From Callorhinchus milii (Eukaryota): a stretch of 64,000 nucleotides of DNA. A model generated the notes under the pieces. It saw only the letters and a program-made list of their open reading frames with translations. It did no database searches and had not been told where the DNA came from. The translations under genes were made by a program, and so were the position numbers. Positions 505 through 63,926 of the stretch are shown here, one piece after another (position 1 is the first letter of the stretch; every line of letters starts with the position of its first letter). The stretch covers positions 13,828,001-13,892,000 of the forward strand of contig NW_024704742.1 in assembly GCF_018977255.1 (NCBI RefSeq), in the 5' to 3' direction.

Positions 505-826
505 GTGGAGTCCTGTAGCTCAGTGGTTAGAGCACTCGCTTTGCAAGCGAGAGACCTGAGTTCAATTCCAGGCAGGGCGAAACCTTGGGCAAGTTTCCTT
601 ACTCCACACAGAGCCTAATAATAATCCCTCCAAAAACCCAAAACAATAATAAATTGGTCATTTTCAATCTACGACTGTTTGTGGGACATTGCTGTGCGCA
701 ATTGGCTGCCGCTTTCGCCCACAAATATACAGTCAATTCACTTTACAGTGTATTCTGTGTAGTGCTTTGGGACGTCCTCCCGACGTGAAAAGCGCGATAT
801 CAAATTCAAGGATTATTATTATTATT
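505..826 (+). mobile_element. Full-length young tRNA(Ala)-derived SINE, short variant (CORE-like + Deu-like body, L2-type tail)
   Basis: A box TAGCTCAGTGG at 516-526 and B box GTTCAATTCC at 560-569. Anticodon arm CTCGC-TTTGCAA-GCGAG (TGC). (ATT)n tail. Near-identical copies at 42253, 46885 and 54967. Confidence 0.92.
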
Positions 827-2676
827 AAAATTTACATTTTACCTACGATCCATGGTGATTGTCGTTTAACATAGACAAAATTGCTTTAGCATTTTGCATA
901 TTTACTAATACAAAGGGAGACATCGCACGTTGCTCACAAAAAATAGAACCTTTTCACTATGTCATCCTAATGGAAAATTCTAGTATAAAGAGTCAAGAGT
1001 TTAGTGTCTGCAGTGATCAATGTAGGAAAGCCCGCAAAGACTTCACAATATCCTTGCTTTTGATATAGTGCCCTTCATATCAGGAGAACATCTCAAAGCG
1101 CTTTGATACATTTGTTTTGCATAATTTTTTTTAAGTAGTTGTATGGTGGCACCGCAGACAAGAATATTCCTGGCTCAAACTCCAGTCTGCTCAGTTTATT
1201 GCTTCAATGCTATTCTGTTTGGATAGGCTGAGCAGAGGTAAGTGTCTACCTGCAGAAAGAAACATGGGATGTCATTAGCGAGCTGTTGCAGCATGAATCC
1301 TAGCAGCTAGCTGAGAATGGGTTTGCCAAAGGACTGTTCTGTCATAGAAAATTTAAGCTAAACGTTGCTGCATATCCTTCACCAGAGACCTTTGTGGAGC
1401 CAAAGGTATATCTATAACTGAATATAAATACAACAGTGCATTTATGCTATTTGAATAGGTCAGAAAAGAAGAATCAAAGTAAGGTGAACTCATTAAACAT
1501 TAAGGTGAATTAGCACATACTAATTGCCATGAAATAGAAAATATAGAGTGAGGGGGTGAGAGCGAGGGTTACAAGGCAGGAATTTCACCCACAATTTGTA
1601 CAGTCGATTTGCTTTACAGTATATTCTGTGAAGCGCTTTGAGATGCCTCAAAGATGTTGATGAGGTGCTGTATCAAAATGCAAGGATTGTTATTTTTGCG
1701 ATTTAAAATGTAAGGTGTTTTCCAAGTCAATAACTTTTGGAGAAAATTGGTTCTGTCAATGTGGTCATGTTAGAGACAATTGTTTTTTTTGCATTTCCTG
1801 TAGCTGCATGGGAGATATTGTTGTTAAGATCACTTTCTCTGGCATGTGGATAAAGGAAAGCTGAGTGATTGCCTACCTGAAATCCCAGAATGTACAGCAA
1901 AGCAGCAGACATTTGACCCATTGAGTTTATACTGGTGCTACCTCTTCCACTTAAAGCTTCCATTTTAATCTCAAAGACCTGTTCTTTCGCTGTAACTTTC
2001 CATATTGTTTCTCACTGAATTTTCTGCACATTTGCTCTGCACTCGCTGCTCTGCAAGTAGTCACCTAATGAATTTCCACATAATTATTGAGTGTATGATG
2101 TGTCAAATCTCATCAAAAGCAAGAACAACATCCACTTCACATAATAGGAAAACATCTCAAAAGTGCTTCACAGAGATGGAGTGTGGCTTGTGCTGGGAAG
2201 GCCAGCGAGGAAGACTTTGGAGAAGTCAAGTCTGAAAGTGTGGCTGAGGGGTTTTACTGTGTTGAGGGTGAGGTCGAGATAGAAGTGGATGATGTGGGGA
2301 TAGAGCTAAGCTTTCTTGGTCAAGGACTGAATTAAAAGCTTAAAGGGAAGTTGAGGGTCAAACAAAATGCTGAGATTGTTCATTAATCCTGATCTGCTGG
2401 AGCCACCAGAAGGGGGATTGATACAGTTAGAGCTAAAGATGAGAAGGCACAGTTGTTTTGTTGATTAGAAAACTTTGAACTGTTATTTTTTCCTGGTTGA
2501 TATTATACTGGGTAGAATAATGCTCTGTAAATATATATAGGTATATTTGACAAAGGTTGTTTATGGTTTGTGATCCTCAGTCTTAGAGGATGTTCTTGCA
2601 ATGTGTACTGTTGGCACAAAAAACATTTTATCTTGATAAATAGAGATAAATTGAGATGGGAATATAGTGAATTAGT

Positions 2677-3023
2677 ATAAACAAAACCCAAAATACTGCA
2701 GATGCTGGAAATCTGATACAAAAACAGAAGTCGCTGGGAACGCTCAGCAGGTCAGGCAGCAACTATGGAGAAAGGAAAGTGAGTCAACGTTTCAGGTCCA
2801 TGACCCTTCATCAGAACTGGGGCATGTGGGAGGGAGAGGCTTTTAAGGTCTAATAGAGAAAGGGGAGGCAGAGCAAGGAAGACAAAGGAGAAAATGGGGT
2901 AGAGGCCAGGGGATGATGGGTTAAAGAGGTGTTAAAGATGCAAAACAAAGGGGCGGCAGGGGGGGTGGGGGGGGGGGGGGGGGATTTCAACAAAACAGGG
3001 GAATAGAGGGGTTAATAATGCAA
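2677..3023 (-). mobile_element. Penelope-like (PLE) short terminal-repeat element containing a hammerhead motif
   Basis: Homologous to 30140-30241, 45745-45890 and 61770-62145. Flanked by the 13-bp direct repeat ATAGTGAATTAGT (2664-2676 / 3024-3036). Confidence 0.75.
2782..2818 (-). ncRNA. Minimal type-I hammerhead ribozyme motif, core intact
   Basis: Minus strand reads AGTT-CTGATGA-A-GGGTC-ATG-GACCT-GAAA-CGTT-GACT: conserved cores, stem II, stem I AGUU/GACU, GUU triplet and palindromic AACGTT stem III. Confidence 0.75.
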
Positions 3024-3276
3024 ATAGTGAATTAGTTGTTGGCATATATTTGACTAAATAAAGGAAATGTGAACTGAATCATGCATCTTTTTATTGCTCC
3101 TCAAATCAAAAAAGCATTGACTCTTGTTCAGCTGGTTAAATAAATACATAAATATTAACAAAATGTAGACTGCATCTGATTATTCAGCTAATAAAATCCA
3201 CATTATGATGACAAACTGTACCATATAAACCCAGCTTCAACCCCCATCACCAATGAGGGTCTTTCAGAGAAGAGGA

Positions 3277-3470
3277 CCAACTATTTACATTTATATAGCA
3301 TCCTTCATGTAGGATAGCATCTCAGAGTGCTTTGCTCCGAGGTTTTAAGGTGGAACGAGGAGGGGTAGAAGGAGGGAGTTCCAGAGGTCAAGGGTATAGA
3401 TTCTGAAGGCTCAGCCACCGATAAGCCCGTGGATGGGGGGGAAGGGGAGGAGGGGCGCGCCTCAAGTCCG
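3277..3470 (-). mobile_element. Old L2 LINE 3' fragment
   Basis: Reverse complement of the L2 tail (catttatatagc) and of the 'ctctggaactccct' ORF2-end motif seen at 63590. Confidence 0.6.
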
Positions 3471-3794
3471 AGTTAAATATTTATTTTCCAGCATTGGTGA
3501 AATATGAAATGTACACTGCAATCAGCATACTTGAAAATCCATCTAGATTTTGGGGATTTCAGTGGAAATTCATAGTGGGTTCTTAACCACTTAAGTGGGA
3601 GCTGCATAGTAGCCAAAGGGTTAAGATGATGTGTAGTGCACTGGGGAGGGAGTCAGGAACAGCTGGCTGTGAAACAAGTAAACTGCAGGCAGAATGTAGT
3701 TTTTGAAGTTTTTGAAGCAAGAGTGTGAAAAATATGTAAGGAAAATACCTGTTTAATGACTATCTGAAAGAAGCTTTGTTGACCGTACTAATTC

Positions 3795-4187
3795 CAACTG
3801 ATTCACTATTTGCACTATTAAACCCTCTATTCCCCTGTTTTGTTGAAATCCCCCCGCCCCTTTGTTTTGCATTTTAACACCTCTTTAACCCATCATTAAC
3901 CCTCTTCCAGGCAGAGGGCGAAACCTTGGGCAAGTTTCCTTACTCCACACAGAGCCTAATAATAATCCCTCCAAAACCAAAAACAATAATAAATTGGTCA
4001 TTTTCAATCCATGACTGTTTGTGGGACATTGCTGTGCGCAATTGGCTGCCGCGTTTCGCCCACAAATATACACTCAATTCATTTTACAGTATATTCTGTG
4101 AAGCGCTTTGGGACATCCTCCCGACGTGAAAAGCACTATATCAAATGTAAGGATTATTATTATTATTATTATCATCCCCTGGCCTCT
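3795..4187 (+). repeat. Inverted partial copy of 2901-3038 (PLE fragment), interrupted by a SINE
   Basis: 3795-3896 and 4171-4187 are reverse complements of 2901-3038. Confidence 0.8.
3905..4171 (+). mobile_element. 5'-truncated young SINE
   Basis: Near-identical to 566-826, with an (ATT)n tail. Confidence 0.92.
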
Positions 4188-26619: not shown

Positions 26620-26788
26620 TATACTATTAGTTATAATAGTATTATTAGTTACTCTATAAACAATAGTATTATTAGTTATCTATAAACAATAGTATTATTA
26701 GTTAGTCTATAAACAATAGTATTATTAGTTAGTCTATAAATAATAGTATTATTAGTTAGCATATAAACAAACTAATAATATTATTAGG
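26620..26788. repeat. 27-bp AT-rich minisatellite, about 5 units
   Basis: Unit AATAGTATTATTAGTTAGTCTATAAAC repeated with few variants. Confidence 0.9.
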
Positions 26789-27764
26789 AATGTTTTGGTA
26801 CAATTAGAAAAGTTGAACAATTTGTTTTCATATAATATGGCAGTTTAATGAACTAATTGTCTTTGTAATCTATACCAATGTAGCACATTCATTATCTTAC
26901 TTATACACTGTCATGCAGAAGCTTTGGAAGTATAGTTCAGTCCGCCTACAATATACAGATACATTGCCACCACAGTTGAAAAATAAGGCTTTGATTGTGC
27001 AGAACTACGTTTGATAATTTTGCATTGATATCATTATTATATCCTACACCAAAGTAGAATGGAAGCATATTGTCTTTAAGAAATGATACATGCTCAATGT
27101 TTGTCAGCAATAAACTTCTAATAATAATAAGGAGCAATGCCTTTTTGTTCCCGCCAATATGCTGTCAGATGGCAGGCAGCGGGAGTAGTTGAATAATGAA
27201 ACAACAACATGGTAAGGAATCCATTCAGGTTTTGTGTCTGTAACCAAGATATTTGTTTTGTGGAGGGTTTCTTTGAGGAGTGGTTGTACATAACAGATGC
27301 TTCTTCTGATTTCTTTAGCAATTGAAGTCTAAAAAAGTACCCAAACCATTCTCCATTTCTCTATGGTCTTATTACCTATCTCACAGCACTGCTGATTTGC
27401 CACTATTAAGCTGTACAGGGATTCTCCTTCAGTCAGATGCATGCTGATAGCACAGAACAGTACACAATTGGAAACTTTCTGGGACTCATCACAGCTTGAT
27501 GATTCACAAAGCCCATGAAATAAACATATGTTGCACAATAGTGCTCTCCATTGGGTATCTAACTTTTATACTTGTATCATTAAGTAAATGCAAGGCAAGG
27601 TTACTCCCAATGGCTGCAACATCAGGTTTATTTTACTCCACAGGTTCCATGTAGCAGATGTGTTGATATGGACTGAAAGTTATTTTCTGTTCCACTTGGT
27701 AAAATTTGTGATTTGTCTAATGGTGGTTGTCTCCTTACTTTCCAAGTATAGTATAGTTTGATAT

Positions 27765-28041
27765 ATCACATTTCACATCTTCTGAATGTCTCAAAGCACT
27801 TCACAGAATATACTGCAAAGTGAATTGACAATATATTTGTGGGCGAAACGCAGCAGCCAATTGTGCACAACAGTGTCCCACAAACAGTCATCCATTGAGT
27901 AACTGTTTTTTTTTCTGGATGGATTATTCTCAGGCATGTGGAGTAAGAAAACTTGCTCAAGGTTTTGCCCTGCTGGGAATCAAACCCAGGTTGCTTACTT
28001 GCAAAGATGAGTGCTCTAACCACTGAGCTAAAGGACTCCAC
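27765..28041 (-). mobile_element. Near full-length tRNA SINE, diverged
   Basis: Reverse-complement head gtggagtcctttagctcagtggttagagcac, Deu-like domain and truncated tail. Confidence 0.88.
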
Positions 28042-30099
28042 ATCCTGTATCTACCAGTTTGGAGGGGCAGACCAATCACGAGGGGCAGGGACTCAACCCA
28101 ACAAGCCAAAGTCCCAATGGGTAAGGTGAGCCTAGCTGGAAAAACAGTAGAAAGCTTGCCAGACAGTGCTCTCAATGGCAAGCCATGCGGTTTTATCTAG
28201 TTAAACACCAGGAGTACCCCAATGCACACTCTATGATCCCCAAGTCTCGGCTCTTGCTAACCTTTACCTAATACTCTCAGGGTTGTGTTTTCTCTGGGGT
28301 GAGAGTGTGCATCCGTTTCAGGTAAATTCCCATGTGTGTCATGCATGGAACATTTGGTCTGGTTTGGATACCATTAAACATGGTGATGGGTTTCTGCATG
28401 TGTCAGGCTATCAGCTAACCCCTAAAGTTTTGTACATTTGCCTTTCATTCCCAACTTTGTGTACTCCAAGTAATGAATTCTTTGATTTAAACTTAATGCG
28501 ATTCTGTTCCATTTGGAAAATTAAGACAATTTGCCCTTGAATTCTTCTAAATAAATGTATCGTAGTTTTAGAAGTATGAGTTAGTTTTATATTGACAATG
28601 GCATCTGAAAAGATCCCTAATGGTTTACATGGTTTACATAGTGACATGGTGTGAACAAAAACACTTGCTATGCAAGAAATGTTTTCATGAATAATCGCTG
28701 TAGCATCCAGTGTCAGTAGATTTTAGTTTCAATCAAATATTGGATGCAAAGTGAAGTCTCACAGTTAGGACCCCTTACAGAGGAGGACACATCAAGGAAG
28801 TATATATCTTTATCAACTATCAACTTTCTTTGAGAAACAATTTTCTTTTAGATAACTATGTGAGAAATAAATCTATATCTCTCTATTTTTCTCTTCCTTT
28901 GCATCTTTCCTTTTAGAAAGAAAGTTGATACAGCTAGATTCTTGGGAAGTAAGGGGATTAAAGAATATGGAGAAACATTGGGCAAATGGGAGCACTGAGT
29001 CTCACTTGGTTTAGAGATCATCTTGCTACAAAAATAAAATTACATTTATATAGTGTCTTTCACGTTGAAGGACGCATCAAGGTGCTGGACAGTTAAGGGT
29101 TTTTATCCAAGCTTTGATTCTGGGAAAGAGTGACAGAAATCTATATCTCTTTATTTTTCTTCTACCTTGCATCTTTTCTTTATAGCTTTTCCATTTTAAT
29201 ACTGGAACAAGAAAATGTATAAAGTGACAGGAAAGGCTTTTCAGAATACGATATCAATATCTAAAATAACACACAAGCCAGACAGTAACTTGATGAAGTA
29301 AATCAGTTAATGTTAGAAATAATAACTTAACTACTGTTGTATTGTATTGTAGCGTCTAAGCGGTGAGACTATATTAGAACAAGAAGATATAGGACAAACT
29401 CAACTGTGTATAAAGCAGCAACTTACATTGGAAAACAAACTTAGGCTTTGTGGTCCTTGGTTGAAACATTGCAATCAGGTATCAACCTGACTGAGTTGGG
29501 AACACTCTTGCCTTTGAGTCAGAAGGTTGTGGGATCAGGATTTTGAATTTACATTGCCTCAGGTGACACTCCATTGAGGTACAGTACCTTTATAAATCAC
29601 AGGCCAGGATGCGACTGACTGGGCCGCTTCCCACTTGATGGAATTTTCTAGGGAAAATGTACACCAGAATATTTGATAGGGAAGTGAACTGCCCCCCAAA
29701 TTCTCAAGAACTGACATTAACTTCTTCAATGTTTGGCTCTGGGAATATCTGGCTGAGTCTGTAGCTGTTATGTGTTGGTGCACCAGGGAGCAAATTGTAG
29801 TGTTGTGATATATTAATGAAATTCTATGGTGCTAATTAACATGTGCATTGAACTTTGTGACTTTATAAAATTTAACACATCCACTGGCCCCTGGGTTTGC
29901 TTGAGACAAACACCACTCACTGCCTACAACCAATATCCTCTATTTGAAATGATACCCAAACTGTGCATTGGACTGTCTCATATGTCCCACATTAGTATGT
30001 TTAACTCAACAACAATTAAAAGAAAAATGTTATCTTAGTTATCAAAAATCAACACACCAATCCAGTGTGAGAGCTGGAGGTCAAATGCACATGGTGTAA

Positions 30100-30241
30100 A
30101 CAAAACCAAAATAATGCAGATGCTGGAAATCTAGAAATTGAGTTCTGACGAAGGGTTGTGGACCCGAAACCTTGACTCACTTTCCTTTCTCCATAGGTAC
30201 TGCCTGATCTGCTGAGTGTTCCCAGCGACTTCTGTTTTTGT
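30100..30241. mobile_element. Penelope-like short element with internal inversion and 14-bp TSD; hammerhead at 30140-30178 (+), triplet mutated
   Basis: TSD TGCACATGGTGTAA at 30086-30099 / 30242-30255. Motif GAGTT-CTGACGA-A-GGGTT-GTG-GACCC-GAAA-CCTT-GACTC. Confidence 0.8.
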
Positions 30242-30255
30242 TGCACATGGTGTAA

Positions 30256-33519: not shown

Positions 33520-33838
33520 TTTCACATACCAAGAGGCAGCGGCCTGCTCCACATCCCCTGACCCACCATTGGCGGGAGAGCCTTCAGCCACTCTTCCACC
33601 AACCTCTGGAATTCCATCCCCCAATCACTCTGCCTCGCCCCCTCCGTAGCCTCCTTCAAGTCCCACCTCAAGACCCTCCCCTTCGACCATGCCATCGGCC
33701 ACCCCCTTCCCCTCCCCTCCCTTCTCCCTCCCTGACTCCAGCTTGGATCTGAAATGCTGTACACTGTCCAGCACCTTGGGATGTCCTCCCGATGTGAAAG
33801 GCGCTATACAAATGTAATCTTGCTGCTGTTGTTGTTGT
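33520..33838 (+). mobile_element. L2 LINE 3' fragment
   Basis: ORF2 end, 3' UTR and (TTG)n tail. Confidence 0.88.
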
Positions 33839-34353
33839 GGGCCATTTAAAGCTAGTACAATGCTGTTATTTGGAGATTTAGGAAAAACAAAAGTGGATGA
33901 GACAGCAACAAGAAGGTATGAATTTACAACACAATTCATTAAAATAAAGAAAGCCTGGAGGGTGGAATGGTAAAGGGAAGCAGACTGCCAACATTTGAAG
34001 GTGTTAAATTTGAGGCAGGCTGAGGTGTCCTGCAAAAAAGATAAGATAGCATCTCCTGAGGTTTGGTGCTAGGCTTGGTTGGAGATAAGAGGCCAATGTT
34101 AGAGGTACAAATGGGGAGGCAAGTGGTGAATCCCGGTAGTTCAGGTTCTTGTTTAAAGGCAGAAAGGAAATCTTTAAAAATTATTAGCCTTCAGTTAGTT
34201 CACAATGATATAGAAGAGGTAGCACTGCAAACAAGGAAAAGGCGGGGCAGGAGAGGCGGGGGGAGGTGGGAGGGAGAGGTGGGATGCGGTGGGGGCAACC
34301 TCTGACTTGTTAAACAGAATGTATAAAGCTGCACAAATTCATTGCCTCTAACT

Positions 34354-34838
34354 CAACAACAAGATTACATTTGTATAGTGCCTTTCATGTCGGGAGGATG
34401 TCCCAAGGCGCTGGACATTGTACAGCATTTCAGACCCAAGCAGGGGTTGGGGGTTAAGGGAGGGGAAGGGGGTGGCCGATGGCATGGTCAAAGAGGAGCG
34501 TCTTGAAGTGGGACTTGAAGGAGGCTAAGGAGGAGGCGAGTGGAGTGATTGGGGGATGGAATTCCGGAGATTGGGGGCAGAGTGGCTGAAGGCTCTCCCA
34601 CCAATGATGGGGCGGGTGGGTCGGGGGACGTGGAGCAGGCTGGAGCCGGCTGAGTGGAGGGAATGGGCGGGTTGGTAAGGGGTTAGGAGGTCGCAGAGGT
34701 AGGGTGGGGCGAGGCCATGGAGGGCTTTGTATGTGAGGACCAGGATCTTGAATTGGATCCTCTGAAGGATAGGGAGCCAATGGAGTCGGGCGAGAATAGG
34801 GGAGATGGGGTTATGGAGTTTGGTGCGGAAGAGGATAC
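34354..34838 (-). mobile_element. L2 LINE 3' fragment
   Basis: Reverse complement encodes degenerate PILARLHWLP..RIQFKILVLTYK. (CAA)n tail at 34354. Confidence 0.9.
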
Positions 34839-35235: not shown

Positions 35236-35496
35236 ACAACAACAACAACAACAACAAGATTCCATTTATAAAGCGCCTTTCACGTCAGGAGGACGTCCCA
35301 AGGCGCTGCACAGTTCGGTCATGACCTGAGCAGGGGGGAAATGGTCAGGGTGAGGGGAGGGAAGGGAGGGACCGAGGAGGGGGGAAATGGTCAGGGTGAG
35401 GGGAGGGAAGCGAGGGACCGAGGAGGGGGGAAATGGTCAGGGTGAGGGGAGGGAAGGGAGGGAGCGAGGAGGGGGAAGGGAGTCGAGAGGGGCTCA
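35236..35496 (-). mobile_element. Young L2 3' UTR with three 46-bp tandem units
   Basis: Reverse complement of ~63682-63926; period 46 (35341/35387/35433). Confidence 0.92.
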
Positions 35497-42252: not shown

Positions 42253-42573
42253 AATAATAATAAATAATAATCCTTGCATTTGATATAGCGCTTTTCACGT
42301 CTTCTTGACGTCTCAAACCGCTTCACTGAATTTGCTGTGAAGTGAATTGACCGTATATTTATGGGTGAAACGCGGCAGCCAATTGCACACAGCAATGTCC
42401 CACAAACAGTCGTGGATTGAAAATGACCAATTTATTATTGTTTTGTTTTGGAGGGATTATTATTAGGCGTGTGGAGTAAGGAAACTTGCCCAAGATTTCG
42501 TCCCGCCTGGAATTGAACCCAGGTCTCTCGCTTGCAAGGCGAGTGCTCTAACCACTAAGCTACAGGACTCCAC
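42253..42573 (-). mobile_element. Full-length young tRNA SINE
   Basis: Reverse complement of 505-826. Confidence 0.92.
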
Positions 42574-43333
42574 AACAGGAATTCATACCCCAAACCAATT
42601 GTTAGTTATTGATTGAATTCAACTGTTTCTTGACAGATTCAATGTGGTAATTATTCCACCTATTCTTTTATGAAGCATCACATTTTTATTCCTAAATATG
42701 ACAAATAGGAAAAAAATATTCTTAAAGATTGTTATAAATATAACTTAGGAAATAACTTAAGAGATTTGAATGTTATAATATCACATGCTCTTTGATTTGT
42801 AGGAGTGAGAATTCAGTTTCAAATTGCACTTTACAGTATAACAACACCAAACAACTTGCACTTATATAGTGCCCTCCATGCAGCGTAGCGTCTCAGAGTG
42901 CTTAAAACATAATACTAGAATAGATTTAATTTGCTGTACTATAACATGTAAAATAATAAAATAAAATAATAAATACCATTTCAAACAAACTACTCCCTCA
43001 ACTAACTATGGTGACTTTTGCTTAATTGGAGATGTTCAGTAGATTATCTGTAAGAAACAATATTTTGATGAAATTAAAAATTTGTCTGTGACATACACAC
43101 ACTCATATATTCCAATAATGCATTACATACTACAGTAGAAGGAAAGAGTTTTTGCTTGTGACTTTATAAAATAATCAGTCCCCCTCACCCCCGCATATCA
43201 GCAGAAATACAATAGTACTGTATGATAATTATCCTCTCTGCATGCCACACTAATATATATCAGGAAGCAAGAGAAAATGCAGTTGGTTAATATTAATGGT
43301 TGTTGATTAAAGCAGAGGGAACATTTATAAACT

Positions 43334-45274: not shown

Positions 45275-46240
<966 letters not shown>

Positions 46241-46884
46241 TATTATGATGATTTGTCTTTTGGCTTTTCATTCCTATTCATTTATAAGCTTTATATAAAT
46301 TTGAGATGCAATTATTAAGGAGCTTTTGGAATGCTCTGTCTCAAATGGACCTCTTTTATCCTATAAGTCGTACGACCATTTACATATTAAGTTAACATGT
46401 GGTTAGATTATAAAATTTTAACAATATGTACACTTTATATTTATGATGATTCTAAGTTAAAAGCACTTGGCAATATACGCCATAATCATTGGTTTATGAC
46501 TGTTAGTCATTCATTTGTGGGAGAAAGGTTGAATAATGCATTATATAATAAATCTAATACAATTTTGTAGAGTTGTTTTCTGTGGTGCCTGTATTGTTTT
46601 TCAAAGTTGCTACGAATCATTTCAAATGTTGGAGAAAGGCTTTAGTTACAGTGGGCCATGCAATTGATTTTCAATAAAGTGGATGTCTCCTAATCATTAG
46701 GAAGAATAATGGATTCAGGCAATCTGAGCAAATTTATATTGTTTCAAACAAACAACAAGCAAACAAAAATGTTTGGGACTGGAGGAAAAGTCTGTCCAAA
46801 AGAAATCCAAATTCCATTTTCTTCCAAACAGAAGGTGAACAGAAATGTTCAGAATTCAGAACATCACTCACATTAGGTACCATT

Positions 46885-47207
46885 GTGGAGTCCTGTAGCT
46901 CAGTGGTTAGAGCACTCGCTTTGCAAGTGAGAGACCTGAGTTCAATTCCAGGCAGAGGGCGAAACCTTGGGCAAGTTTCCTTACTCCACACGCCTAATAA
47001 TAATCCCTCCAAAAAAACAAAACAATAATAAATTGGTCATTTTCAATCCATGACTGTTTGTGGGACATTGCTGTGCGCAATTGGCTGCCGCGTTCGCCCA
47101 CAAATATACAGTCAATTCACTTTACAGTGTGTCTGTGAAGCGCTTTGGGACGTCCTCCCGACGTGAAAAGCGCTATATCAAATGCAAGGATTATTATTAT
47201 TATTATT
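46885..47207 (+). mobile_element. Full-length young tRNA SINE
   Basis: Near-identical to 505-826, with intact A and B boxes. Confidence 0.93.
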
Positions 47208-54966: not shown

Positions 54967-55286
54967 GGAGTCCTGTAGCTCAGTGGTTAGAGCACTCGCT
55001 TTGCAAGCGAGAGACCTGAATTCAATTCCAGGCAGGGCGAAACCTTGGGCAAGTTTCCTTACTCCACACGCCTAATAATAATCCCTCCAAAACCAAAAAC
55101 AATAATAAATTGGTCATTTTCAATCTACGACTGTTTGTGGGACATTGCTGTGTGCAATTGGCTGCTGCATTCGCCCTCAAAAAAGTCAATTCACTTTACA
55201 GTATATTCTGTGAAGCGCTTTGGGACATCTAGAAGACGTGAAAAGCGCTATACCAAATGCAAGGATTATTATTATTATTATTATTA
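54967..55286 (+). mobile_element. Full-length young tRNA SINE
   Basis: Near-identical to 505-826. Confidence 0.92.
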
Positions 55287-56355
55287 AGTTGGCCGAGTTA
55301 TGCTTATAAATTTGGTAGAAATATGTAGTATCCGTTTTCTTTGGGACATGCAAGCTTTCTCATTTTTCAAATATGCCATTTAGACTTTACTGTTGGTAAC
55401 ACTGGGTCAGTTTTTGCGGCAGCCATAGGGTATCAGACTTGTCCATAAGCATTGTCCAAAAGATTAATCTATAATGTATGTGATAAACAGCTGAACTTTA
55501 ATCTTTTGTTTGTTCTGAGGTTTAGAGGAATGGGGTTTGTTCAGGCAGATGACACATCTGAGCATTACATATATTATTCTCCACTATATTCAATGCTTGG
55601 AAGGTTAAAGAGCACATTCCTTCAAAATGTTTTGACTTCAAAGCAACCAATAATGCACTGTAAGAGACATTAAGACAAAGTGAAATTTAAGATTATCCTC
55701 AGAATAATATTAATAATATAATAACCCTCATATTGTTTAATATCCATGTGCCCTTCTACATTGAGATGATGTCTTGAAGCACTTGACAGGCTTTACTTCA
55801 AAGTTCAGTGACTGTGTATTTGTACGTGCAAAATGTCAATATTGGCAAATCTGGTGTAAAATCAGAAGTTCTGAACAGAAGACTGCAAAAGATTAATTGA
55901 TCAATATCAGGACAATTGTCAGCACTTGGCAGATTGCAATTTAGCGCTAAATACAATGCCTTTTATGCAATTCAGAGTATGAGATACTAAAATGATCTTT
56001 ATAATTCAATTTCCCATTGTAAACACATGGAGAAAAAGAACACCTTTCTTGTCAAGAATAATCCTTGCGTTTGATCTTGTGCCTTATCACGTCTTCGAGA
56101 CGCCTCAAAGCTCAGCACAGAATATACTGTAAAGTGAATTGACTGTATAACAGTCAACATAGAGTATCCCTATTTGACAGGATTCTTAGCTTTTCAGATT
56201 TTCTTACACCTGACCCTTAGACTCCAACTAAATCAGAAGCATCTTGAATTCATGTTGAAACTTGAGATTTATAAGTAGTCAGCTGATAAGAGAAAGATTT
56301 CTACAAGTTTACAGCAGAAATGCCTCCTAAAATGCACCCCACTGCTAACACAAAA

Positions 56356-61769: not shown

Positions 61770-62145
61770 CCCTCTTTCTGTTACCAGAAGAGTTATCTTC
61801 TGTTATCATTACAATCATCACCCAAGACACTCTTTGTCTCTCTTGGTGTGTTGCCTGTTCTGCACTATTAACACCTCTTCTCCCCAGTTTTGTTTCAACC
61901 CAGCACCCACTTTTGTTTTACACCACTATCACCTCTTTAACCCATAAGCTAACACATTCTCCCCTTTGTCTTTTTTTTTGTCTTATTTGTCTTCCATGTC
62001 CTGTTTCCCCCTCTCAACATGCCTCAGTTCTGATGAAGGATCGTGGACCTGAAATGTTGACTCACTTTCTTTTCTCCATGGATGCTGCCTGACCTGCTGA
62101 GCTTTCCCAGCTCTCTCTGTTTCTGTTCCAGCTTTACAGTTCTCT
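61770..62145 (+). mobile_element. Penelope-like element, longest copy; hammerhead at 62026-62062 with a C>T change
   Basis: Homologous to the reverse complement of 2690-3020. Motif AGTT-CTGATGA-AGGATC-GTG-GACCT-GAAA-TGTT-GACT. Confidence 0.72.
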
Positions 62146-62169: not shown

Positions 62170-62455
62170 AACAATTATTATTCCACAATAATAATCCGTC
62201 CAAAAAAAAACAATAATAAATTGGTCATTTTCAATCTACGACTGTTTGTGGGACATTGCTATGCGCAATTGGCTGCCACGTTCGCCCACAAATATACAGT
62301 CAATTCACTTTACAGTGTGTTCTGCGAAGCGCTTTGGGATGTCCTCCCAACGTGAAAAGCGCTATATCAAATGCAAGGATTATTATTATTATTATATTCT
62401 GTGAAGCACTTTGAGACATCTAGAAAGATGTGAAAAGCCTATATCAAATGCAATA
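62170..62455 (+). mobile_element. 5'-truncated SINE plus a second tandem tail
   Basis: Deu-like domain and tail to ~62395. Second tail atattctgtgaagcact...atcaaatgcaa. Confidence 0.88.
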
Positions 62456-62609
62456 ATATTATTATATTAATAATATTAATAATAATAATTATAATAATAT
62501 ATTAATAATTATAATAATATATTAATAATATTAATAATATTATTATAATATTAATAATATTATTATAATATTAATAATATTATTATAATATTAATAATAT
62601 TATTATTAA
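62452..62609. repeat. 158-bp pure A/T palindromic tandem repeat
   Basis: No G or C. Later part has 20-bp period TTAATAATATTATTATAATA. Confidence 0.92.
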
Positions 62610-62880: not shown

Positions 62881-63072
62881 TGTCTATCAGCATTGTAAAG
62901 AATAATGTCCTCTCTCAAACTTATTTCCTCTATCAAAAGATTTTATTTCCATCGATATCTTTTTATAAAATGTCTCTTTTGTTTCTCTAAGTCTTCCCCA
63001 ACTTCTCAATGCAATTGTACAGTACAATTATACAATAGGCTATTGTATGCCTATTGCCTATTGTATAATTGC

Positions 63073-63926
63073 CATTCAGGAACCTTGGTGTTCTGTTCGA
63101 CCCTGAGCTGTCCTTTCTTCCTCATATCCGCGCCACAACTGGCACCGCCTTCCAACACCTCCGAAATATTGCCAGACTACGGCACTACCTCACCCCTCAC
63201 GCTGCTGAAACTCTGGTCCACGCCTTTATCATCTCAAGGCTGGACTATGGGAACTCTCTCCTCACCGGCCTTCCCGGCACCTCCCTCCACAAGCTGCAGG
63301 TCATTCAGAACTCTGCAGCTCGTGTACTGTCCCGCACCAGGCTTCGCGACCACATCACTCCCACCCTCGCTCGCCTCCACTGGCTCCCATCCCCCAGAGG
63401 ATCGAATTCAAGATCCTCATCCTCACCTACAAGGCCATTCACGGCCTTGCTCCCTCCTACCTCTCCAACCTACTATCCCCCTACCTACCTGCTCGTACCC
63501 TCCATTCCTCTGGCTCCGGTCTGCTCCACATCCCCCGCCCCAACGGCCCTACCATCGGTGGTCTGGCCTTCAGCCTCTCAGCCCCCAGGCTCTGGAACTC
63601 TATCCCCCAGTGCCTTCGCCGCCTCCTCCCTTTCCTCCTTCAAGGCCGGTCTCAATACCTTTCTCTTTGACCGTGCCTTCAGCTCCCCTCTTGACTCTCT
63701 ACCCCCTCCTCGCTCCCTCCCTTCCCTCCCCTCACCCTGACCATTTCCCCCCTCCTCGCTCCCTCCCTTCCCTCCCCTCACCCTGACCATTTCCCCCCTC
63801 CTCGCTCCCTCCCTTCCCTCCCCTCACCCTGACCATTTCCCCCCTGCTCGGGTCCTGCTGTACAGCGCCTTGGGACGTCCTCCCGACGTGAAAGGCGCTC
63901 TATAAATGGAATTTTGTTGTTGTTGT
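63073..63926 (+). mobile_element. Young L2-clade LINE, 5'-truncated (ORF2 C-terminus, 3' UTR, (TTG)n tail)
   Basis: RNLGVLFDPELSF..HAFIISRLDYGNSLL..QNSAARVL..HITPTLARLHWLP. One frameshift at ~63390 (continues QRIEFKILILTYK). CpGs retained. Confidence 0.95.

What the first reader, a model, noticed from the sequence alone, without database searches (positions are those of the whole stretch)
2664..3036. Hammerhead-carrying Penelope-like element with a 13-bp TSD and an intact ribozyme core
Seen: the minus strand at 2782-2818 holds CUGAUGA and GAAA cores, stem II, stem I, a GUU triplet and a loopless palindromic stem III (AACGUU). The 347-bp element sits between ATAGTGAATTAGT direct repeats. Known: Penelope-like elements carry minimal type-I hammerheads that cleave efficiently as dimers via the palindromic stem III. 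Inference: a short non-coding unit that was mobilised on its own and may still self-cleave if transcribed.
Basis: partly seen in the sequence, partly recalled or inferred. Interest (0 to 1): 0.7.

Follow-up and report, generated by a model that had tools for sequence, protein, structure and literature searches.

The report
Truncated Penelope end with aged hammerhead
This 347-base insert between 13-base direct repeats is likely the cut-short tail end of a very abundant Penelope-type jumping gene, carrying that family's already described small self-cutting RNA motif in an aged form that probably cuts poorly or not at all here, so it is ordinary genomic debris.

Summary
Observation confirmed; interpretation partly supported. 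The exact 13-bp repeats (2664-2676, 3024-3036), the 347-bp insert and a minimal type-I hammerhead on the minus strand (2818-2782) are there. The repeat is host DNA: family contigs from four organisms stop matching at 3024 and run on into more family sequence. So the TSD is real (12-13 bp), and the 5' end is a truncation point, not the end of a defined unit. The family is very abundant, with three more copies in the window. All invariant core bases are present. But this copy has G10.1-U11.1 where 79% of family depth has G-C, a low-ranked GUU site, no tandem partner, and a fold lost in its own flanks. No compensatory change was seen among four copies. Published cleavage of such motifs is low even as dimers. 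This scan has noted the same kind many times (379 findings, 143 in this genome). One extra: an inverted duplicate of the 5' end plus TSD lies at 3795-4187 and may mark a 756-bp inversion, a scar known from LINE-1.

The parts
2664..2676 (.). Left TSD copy, next to the element's 3' end (likely the priming side)
   Evidence: locus-unique contigs end at 2705-2708, just inside the element (table 8)
2677..3023 (-). 5'-truncated end-piece (pseudo-LTR-like) of a very high-copy Penelope-like family
2677..2717 (-). About 41-nt 3' extension, likely the PLE 'tail': present in one arm and absent from the other arm of the 30-kb copy
   Evidence: tail concept from PMC8557442 and PMC11167929
2782..2818 (-). 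Minimal type-I hammerhead motif; predicted cut between 2786 and 2785 (after GUU)
2794..2806 (-). Stem II, 5 bp, 3-nt loop; first pair G-U here, G-C in most family depth
2787..2790 (-). Palindromic ACGU (positions 15.1, 15.2, 16.2, 16.1), no loop
3024..3036 (.). Right TSD copy; first base shared with the family (1-bp overlap)
   Evidence: X1 depth 1671 at 3016-3023, 153 at 3024-3031, 13.4 at 3032-3039, 7.3 beyond
3039..3794 (.). 756-bp host segment between the two inverted copies; candidate local inversion (untested)
   Evidence: (organism-B contig aligns only from 3038)
3795..3896 (+). Inverted duplicate of 2913-3038 (element 5' part, TSD and 2 more bases)
   Evidence: 99 of 102 aligned bases match, 24 gap columns (23 in the C-run)
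3905..4170 (+). 5'-truncated copy of the window's abundant tRNA-headed SINE, inserted into the duplicate
4171..4187 (+). Remainder of the inverted duplicate (2901-2917), 17 of 17 identical
30086..30255 (.). Second family insertion: two arms pointing outwards, one with the tail and one without, 14-bp TSD; palindrome broken (ACCU)
45727..45884 (+). Third family copy, stem II damaged
61861..62139 (+). Fourth family copy, stem II and palindrome damaged; its upstream sequence lacks the 13-mer

Best explanation
The 347-bp insert is likely a 5'-truncated retro-copy of the hammerhead-bearing end of a Penelope-like element (PLE), probably written in by target-primed reverse transcription, and its ribozyme motif is predicted to be weak or silent at this site. 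Steps. (1, inferred) A PLE endonuclease nicked AT-rich DNA after 2676, and reverse transcription began at the family's usual outer start, about 108 nt downstream of the hammerhead cut site, on an uncleaved RNA longer than the insert. (2, shown) The copy stops at 3023/3024, where relatives carry on; the junction has a 1-bp overlap and 12-13 bp of host DNA are duplicated. (3, shown as differences, inferred as decay) The copy differs from the family majority at three CpG positions inside the motif, one of which turns G10.1-C11.1 into G-U. (4, predicted) The motif has no stem III loop and would need a second motif to cut; the nearest other copy is 27 kb away on the other strand, and in its own flanks stems I and II are out-competed. 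(5, inferred) At or after insertion the 5' 123 bp plus TSD were duplicated in inverted orientation 756 bp away, and a SINE later landed in the duplicate. Whether the longer donor RNA coded for the PLE protein or was a non-coding derivative was not shown.
For: Motif matches the published metazoan PLE min-HHR features: extra base between 9 and 10.1, 4-5-bp helix I, palindromic 15.2-16.2 (PMC4209133 parts 1-2). High copy: X1 summed contig depth 457,419 at 2726-2796 against 6.5-10 in 2442-2654 (an order of magnitude only, not a copy number). 5' end is a truncation and the 13-mer is host (the 62-kb copy has other upstream sequence). Two family copies end near the same 3' point, and the 30-kb copy shows the tail/no-tail two-arm layout with a 14-bp TSD, as described for PLEs (PMC8557442, PMC3846280 passages). 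Family variants at 2794 (79%), 2801 (68%) and 2810 (58%) are CpG transitions at which this copy has the minority base. Stem I/II pair probabilities fall from 0.55-0.95 (37 nt alone) to 0.02 or less with 10-40 nt of flank, while the 30-kb copy keeps 0.78-1.0. GUU ranks low among cleavable triplets (PMC8879150 passage). A same-type motif sits about 85 nt after a GIY-YIG frame in L052.
Against: No RT or GIY-YIG frame of this family was found in the window: 0 such hits in 150 of 249 non-repeat frames and 3 other window frames. So PLE membership of this exact family rests on motif and insertion anatomy. Only 1 of 14 metagenome frames tested (of 31 listed) hit GIY-YIG. All invariant core bases are intact, GUU is an allowed triplet (PMC3138052 passage), U17 is in 4 of 4 window copies and in 4 of 25 stem-I-bearing metagenome motifs, so low activity is a prediction only; fold programs ignore tertiary contacts, co-transcriptional folding and protein help. 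No empty orthologous site was seen. Stem II is 5 bp, shorter than the 7-8 bp reported for Schistosoma min-HHRs.
Confidence: 0.85

Rival explanations
1. A defined non-autonomous unit (retrozyme monomer or SINE-like element) of about 350-360 nt that moves as such, perhaps through a circular RNA.
For: No coding frame in the insert; 347+13 = 360 bp is close to the 363-bp mean retrozyme consensus length given for the one cartilaginous fish sampled (10.64898/2026.07.22.740005 part 2).
Against: No tandem array; relatives run on past 3024 in four organisms; the 13-mer is not family sequence, so there is no terminal redundancy; four window copies have four different 5' ends; neither end is at the predicted cut site.
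Confidence: 0.07
2. The 13-mer is part of the element, or a remnant of recombination, and not a TSD.
For: A third copy of the 13-mer at 3797-3809 adjoins the same element sequence. The organism-B contig aligns only from 3038 and does not extend through the 13-mer.
Against: Depth drops to about two single-copy loci across 3032-3039, and the contig listed as carrying 3024-3038 besides the locus's own has the length and depth of the contig that covers the 3795 duplicate (564 nt, depth 7). That duplicate shares rare variants with this copy, so it is a local copy and not an independent insertion.
Confidence: 0.03
3. This copy is a working ribozyme that cuts a host transcript, alone or by pairing in trans with transcripts of other copies.
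For: It is the best preserved of the four window motifs (core, both stems and palindrome all present); the family is abundant enough for trans partners.
Against: G10.1-U11.1, GUU site, predicted misfolding in context; single motifs gave no detectable cleavage in PMC4209133; no reads ended at the cut site for the Anolis element (PMC11167929 part 2); no compensatory change.
Confidence: 0.05

Closest known systems
Minimal hammerheads (min-HHR) in pseudo-LTRs of metazoan Penelope-like elements (Cervera and De la Pena 2014, PMC4209133; parts 1-2 of 4 read)
   Same: Type-I layout, extra base between A9 and 10.1, 4-bp helix I, loopless palindromic 15.2-16.2; mostly single dispersed motifs attributed to truncated PLEs; thousands per genome in fish, coelacanth and frog.
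   Different: G10.1-U11.1 in this copy (the paper calls G10.1-C11.1 highly conserved); helix II of 5 bp; U17 across the four window copies. Cartilaginous fish are not named in the parts read; supplements not seen.
Endonuclease-positive PLE insertions with 5' truncation, optional 30-40-bp tail, inverted arm and TSD (PMC8557442, PMC3846280 passages; PMC11167929 parts 1-2 of 4)
   Same: 5'-truncated end-piece, tail of about 40 nt, AT-rich target, TSD; the 30-kb copy shows the inverted two-arm form; HHR lies about 100 nt upstream of the 3' end (85-92 nt in the Anolis element, computed from the paper's figures for cut site and RT starts).
   Different: No coding frame linked here, so the clade (Neptune or Poseidon) is undetermined; TSD 12-14 bp against 8-10 bp in the rotifer examples.
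Non-LTR retrozymes (PMC7229834 passages; 10.64898/2026.07.22.740005 parts 1-3 of 5)
   Same: Non-coding, type-I HHR, about 350 bp, PLE-related.
   Different: Defined by tandem units each with an HHR; this is a solitary piece whose relatives run on beyond its 5' end.
LINE-1 insertions with inversion or inverted duplication at the reciprocal end (10.1101/2024.12.14.628481 passages); staggered-break inversions (PMC1885836 abstract)
   Same: Inverted copy of the TSD at the far end of a sub-kilobase neighbouring segment.
   Different: Here the duplicate includes 123 bp of the element itself; the inversion is not demonstrated, and the timing relative to insertion is open.

Membership tests
Metazoan PLE min-HHR | Invariant core C3 U4 G5 A6 N7 G8 A9, G12 A13 A14, A15.1-U16.1, H17 | tested here: met
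Metazoan PLE min-HHR | Helix I of 4-5 bp and helix II, with an extra base between 9 and 10.1 | tested here: met
   4 bp and 5 bp, extra A at 2807
Metazoan PLE min-HHR | Palindromic 15.2-16.2, no or tiny loop 3 | tested here: met
   ACGU; 2 of 4 window copies keep it
Metazoan PLE min-HHR | G10.1-C11.1 pair | tested here: not met
   G-U in this copy; 79% of family depth has G-C, so met for the family and not for this copy
Metazoan PLE min-HHR | Covariation in stems across copies | tested here: inconclusive
   0 of 9 pairs with a two-sided change in 4 copies, 94% of 35 cells paired; six family variants shown are CpG transitions, 28 rows hidden; stem I enriched in distant motifs, 25 of 73 against mean 4.4
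Metazoan PLE min-HHR | Self-cleavage as a dimer | not testable with these tools
   needs an in vitro assay
EN+ Penelope-like element | RT plus GIY-YIG open reading frame linked to this end-piece | tested here: inconclusive
   none in 153 window frames scanned; no genome held; absence is expected for truncated copies
EN+ Penelope-like element | 5'-truncated copies sharing a 3' end, with optional tail and inverted arm | tested here: met
EN+ Penelope-like element | Target-site duplication | tested here: met
   12-13 bp here, 14 bp at 30 kb; empty site not seen
Non-LTR retrozyme | Tandem units each carrying an HHR | tested here: not met
   one motif at the locus, next one 27 kb away on the other strand
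Non-LTR retrozyme | Defined monomer length or terminal redundancy | tested here: not met
   relatives run on past 3024; the 13-mer is host DNA
Non-LTR retrozyme | Accumulates as circular RNA | not testable with these tools
   only contigs were available; no RNA holder listed
Rfam hammerhead families | Score at or above the gathering threshold | tested here: not met

The most novel reading that the evidence does not exclude
The locus froze a PLE integration intermediate: second-strand synthesis, primed from the TSD overhang, copied only the first 123 nt of the new cDNA, then the reciprocal end was remodelled so that 756 bp of host DNA (3039-3794) flipped and the TSD plus partial second strand landed inverted at 3795-4187. 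That would be a base-precise record of PLE second-strand priming and of a PLE-made micro-inversion.
Probability: 0.2. Interest if true: 0.4.

Novelty: new member of a known kind. Interest (0 to 1): 0.12.

Why it matters
As filed it matters little: dispersed truncated PLE ends with minimal hammerheads number in the thousands in several vertebrate genomes (PMC4209133), and this scan holds 379 similar notes. Two modest uses remain. The copy is a natural G10.1-U11.1/GUU variant for cleavage assays. The neighbouring inverted duplicate, if an outgroup confirms the inversion and its timing, would show PLE insertions leaving the same local rearrangement scars as LINE-1 and would speak to how PLEs prime their second strand, which is not yet established (PMC11167929).

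Tried and rejected
Rfam: no hammerhead family at gathering score in 64 kb or at E<=10 in 2600-3100; the five weak hits there were unrelated. Own genome not held, so no genome-wide end histogram or full-length donor. Viral contigs: 0 matches to the motif pattern. Metagenome contigs: 82 loci, 85 matches, none with BLAST similarity to the 347-bp element at E<1e-3, so they bear on the motif class only; the pattern fixed the base of stem II, so stem II was not scored as evidence. Sequencing runs: no RNA holder listed, which says nothing about expression. No empty-site joint was among the rows shown (765 joints and 10 loose ends hidden), and the loose end before 3038 of the organism-B contig was not shown. 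A short motif from that contig's loose end behind 3179 had 0 matches in the window with up to 3 mismatches. Host gene: 150 of 249 non-repeat frames of 50 aa or more gave one sub-threshold Pfam hit (AP5B1_N, 20 bits, cut-off 21.2), rejected; the strand of any host transcript is unknown. Circular-permutation reading of the 13-mer rejected. Whole-motif folding z-scores are unremarkable (-0.3 to +2.0). The stem II register printed for the 45-kb copy is off by a gap; searches give the better register. No number for the effect of G10.1-U11.1 was found in two searches or passages 44-46; that it lowers activity is my recall plus its stated conservation. Earlier notes by sequence and near this place: none.

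Full report
Observation. The window shows ATAGTGAATTAGT at 2664-2676 and 3024-3036 with 347 bp between. On the minus strand, 2818-2782 reads as stem I (AGUU/GACU), CUGAUGA, an extra A, a 5-bp stem II with a 3-nt loop, GAA, the palindrome ACGU and U17. A core pattern, written after seeing the copies, matches 4 times in the window against 0.04 expected. Rfam has no matching hammerhead family. The layout fits the min-HHR features in PMC4209133 (parts 1-2 of 4 read). Stem III is ACGU only; the 6-base palindrome includes A14 and U17 and could form a stronger off-pathway duplex (-3.5 against -1.7 kcal/mol; relevance inferred).

The family. Three more copies lie at about 30.1, 45.7 and 62.0 kb, 86-92 of 101-102 bases identical to this one over 2718-2818. 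Contigs from four runs of the same organism give summed depth of about 4.6e5 at 2726-2796 against 6.5-10 in the left flank; the tool warns this is no copy number, so I take it only as very abundant. The family is also in three other organisms. That the host is a cartilaginous fish comes from my recall of such repeats and from unchecked scan notes, not from a test here.

Is the TSD real? A bare 13-mer repeat at this spacing arises by chance in 4 of 30 shuffles of the window, and a third, inverted copy at 3797-3809 adjoins the same element sequence, which raised the possibility that the 13-mer is part of the element. settles this. In run X1, depth is 1671 at 3016-3023, 153 at 3024-3031, 13.4 at 3032-3039 and 7.3 beyond. 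Loose ends behind 3024 occur in 29 of 111, 22 of 28, 19 of 19 and 6 of 8 contigs laid from the four organisms (10 rows hidden), with a shared start resembling the element's own internal sub-repeat (agreement 0.54-0.57; sub-repeat). So the 13-mer is host DNA, the TSD is 12-13 bp with a 1-bp overlap, and the family continues beyond this copy's 5' end. An empty orthologous site was not seen.

Unit or truncation? The four window copies begin at different points, there is no tandem array, and the hammerhead lies 108 nt inside the 3' end. The 30-kb copy has two outward-pointing arms, one ending with the roughly 40-nt tail and one stopping before it, inside a 14-bp TSD. This matches the PLE anatomy in PMC8557442 and PMC3846280 (passages) and the two RT starts in PMC11167929 (parts 1-2 of 4). 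No RT or GIY-YIG frame was found in 153 window frames (150 of 249 non-repeat frames plus 3 others), so a coding donor is inferred. In metagenome contig L052 a same-type motif follows a GIY-YIG frame by about 85 nt (1 of 14 frames tested, of 31 listed).

Is the ribozyme intact? Invariant bases yes. The six variants listed inside the motif are all CpG transitions; at 2794 (79%), 2801 (68%) and 2810 (58%) this copy has the minority base (40 rows shown, 28 hidden). The 2794 change makes G10.1-U11.1, a pair PMC4209133 calls highly conserved as G-C; 22 of 25 stem-I-bearing metagenome motifs have C there and 21 of 25 have GUC. GUU is cleavable but low-ranked (PMC3138052, PMC8879150 passages). Stems I and II have pair probabilities 0.55-0.95 in the 37-mer and 0.02 or less with 10-40 nt of flank, whereas the 30-kb copy keeps them. 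No two-sided change occurs in 9 pairs over 4 copies, too few to test covariation. Across distant motifs stem I is enriched (25 of 73 against mean 4.4, maximum 13 in 2000 permutations), so the class is structurally real. Against my reading: this is the best preserved of the four motifs, U17 is in 4 of 4 copies, and folding programs ignore protein help, which the Anolis motif needs. Published activity is low or patchy; the paper titled for dimer cleavage was seen only as a reference-list entry. Supplements of the cited papers were not read and may list cartilaginous-fish motifs.

The inverted duplicate. 3795-3896 plus 4171-4187 is a reverse copy of 2901-3038: 99 of 102 aligned bases and 17 of 17, split by a SINE. 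It shares this copy's minority bases at 2906, 2936 and the position read at 3846, where 923 of 952 depth units differ, so it is a local copy. It lacks the hammerhead. An organism-B contig aligns over 3038-3179 only and does not extend through the 13-mer, which fits a rearrangement break at 3038/3039 but could be divergence. An inversion of 3039-3794 with a staggered break (PMC1885836 abstract) or by LINE-1-like remodelling of the reciprocal end (10.1101/2024.12.14.628481 passages) would give this layout. My odds: inversion or template switch after insertion 0.55, plain inverted copy 0.25, made at insertion 0.2. The nearly private shared base leans towards a later event.

Verdict. A correct observation of a known kind: a truncated PLE end with a real TSD and an aged min-HHR. 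Retrozyme membership fails on tandem layout and defined ends (PMC7229834 passages; 10.64898/2026.07.22.740005 parts 1-3 of 5). The scan has noted the same kind in 379 findings over at least 29 genomes and 143 in this genome, and PLE-linked local inversions twice; these notes are leads, not support. Interest 0.12.

Noticed in passing
window 3795-3896 and 4171-4187; 3039-3794: Inverted duplicate of the element's 5' 123 bp plus TSD plus 2 bases, 756 bp away; possible micro-inversion of the host DNA between.
   Followed up: partly
window 3786-3794: Nine bases identical to the reverse complement of 2669-2677 (left TSD junction) sit directly before the duplicate; could be an old short tandem duplication or templated repair.
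   Followed up: no
window 30086-30255: Two-armed family insertion with a 14-bp TSD; the arms cover adjacent, non-overlapping parts of the end-piece, one with and one without the tail.
   Followed up: partly
window 2786 and the copies at 30.1, 45.7, 62.0 kb: U17 in all 4 window copies, whereas 21 of 25 stem-I-bearing metagenome motifs have C17; the family may have fixed a weaker cut site.
   Followed up: partly
window 505-827, 27757-28042, 42253-42575, 46883-47207, 54967-55290 and many truncated copies: Very abundant tRNA-headed SINE ending in ATT repeats; five Rfam tRNA hits are its heads, not tRNA genes (SINE label inferred).
   Followed up: no
window 62452-62609 and 26634-26786: Self-complementary stretches of about 150 bp.
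   Followed up: no
window 62899-63926, 34354-34828, 35245-35492, 33540-33855: Related C-rich fragments whose translation looks like a LINE (CR1/L2-type) C-terminus by my recall; no Pfam hit.
   Followed up: partly
L059 1501-1584, L066 1501-1584, L060 821-976: Pairs of minimal hammerheads on opposite strands 26-90 bp apart in metagenome contigs, like the head-to-head PLE ends seen in this family.
   Followed up: no
window 3038-3179: Single-copy flank conserved in organism B (15 substitutions, 3 gaps), which diverges or carries an insertion after 3179.
   Followed up: partly
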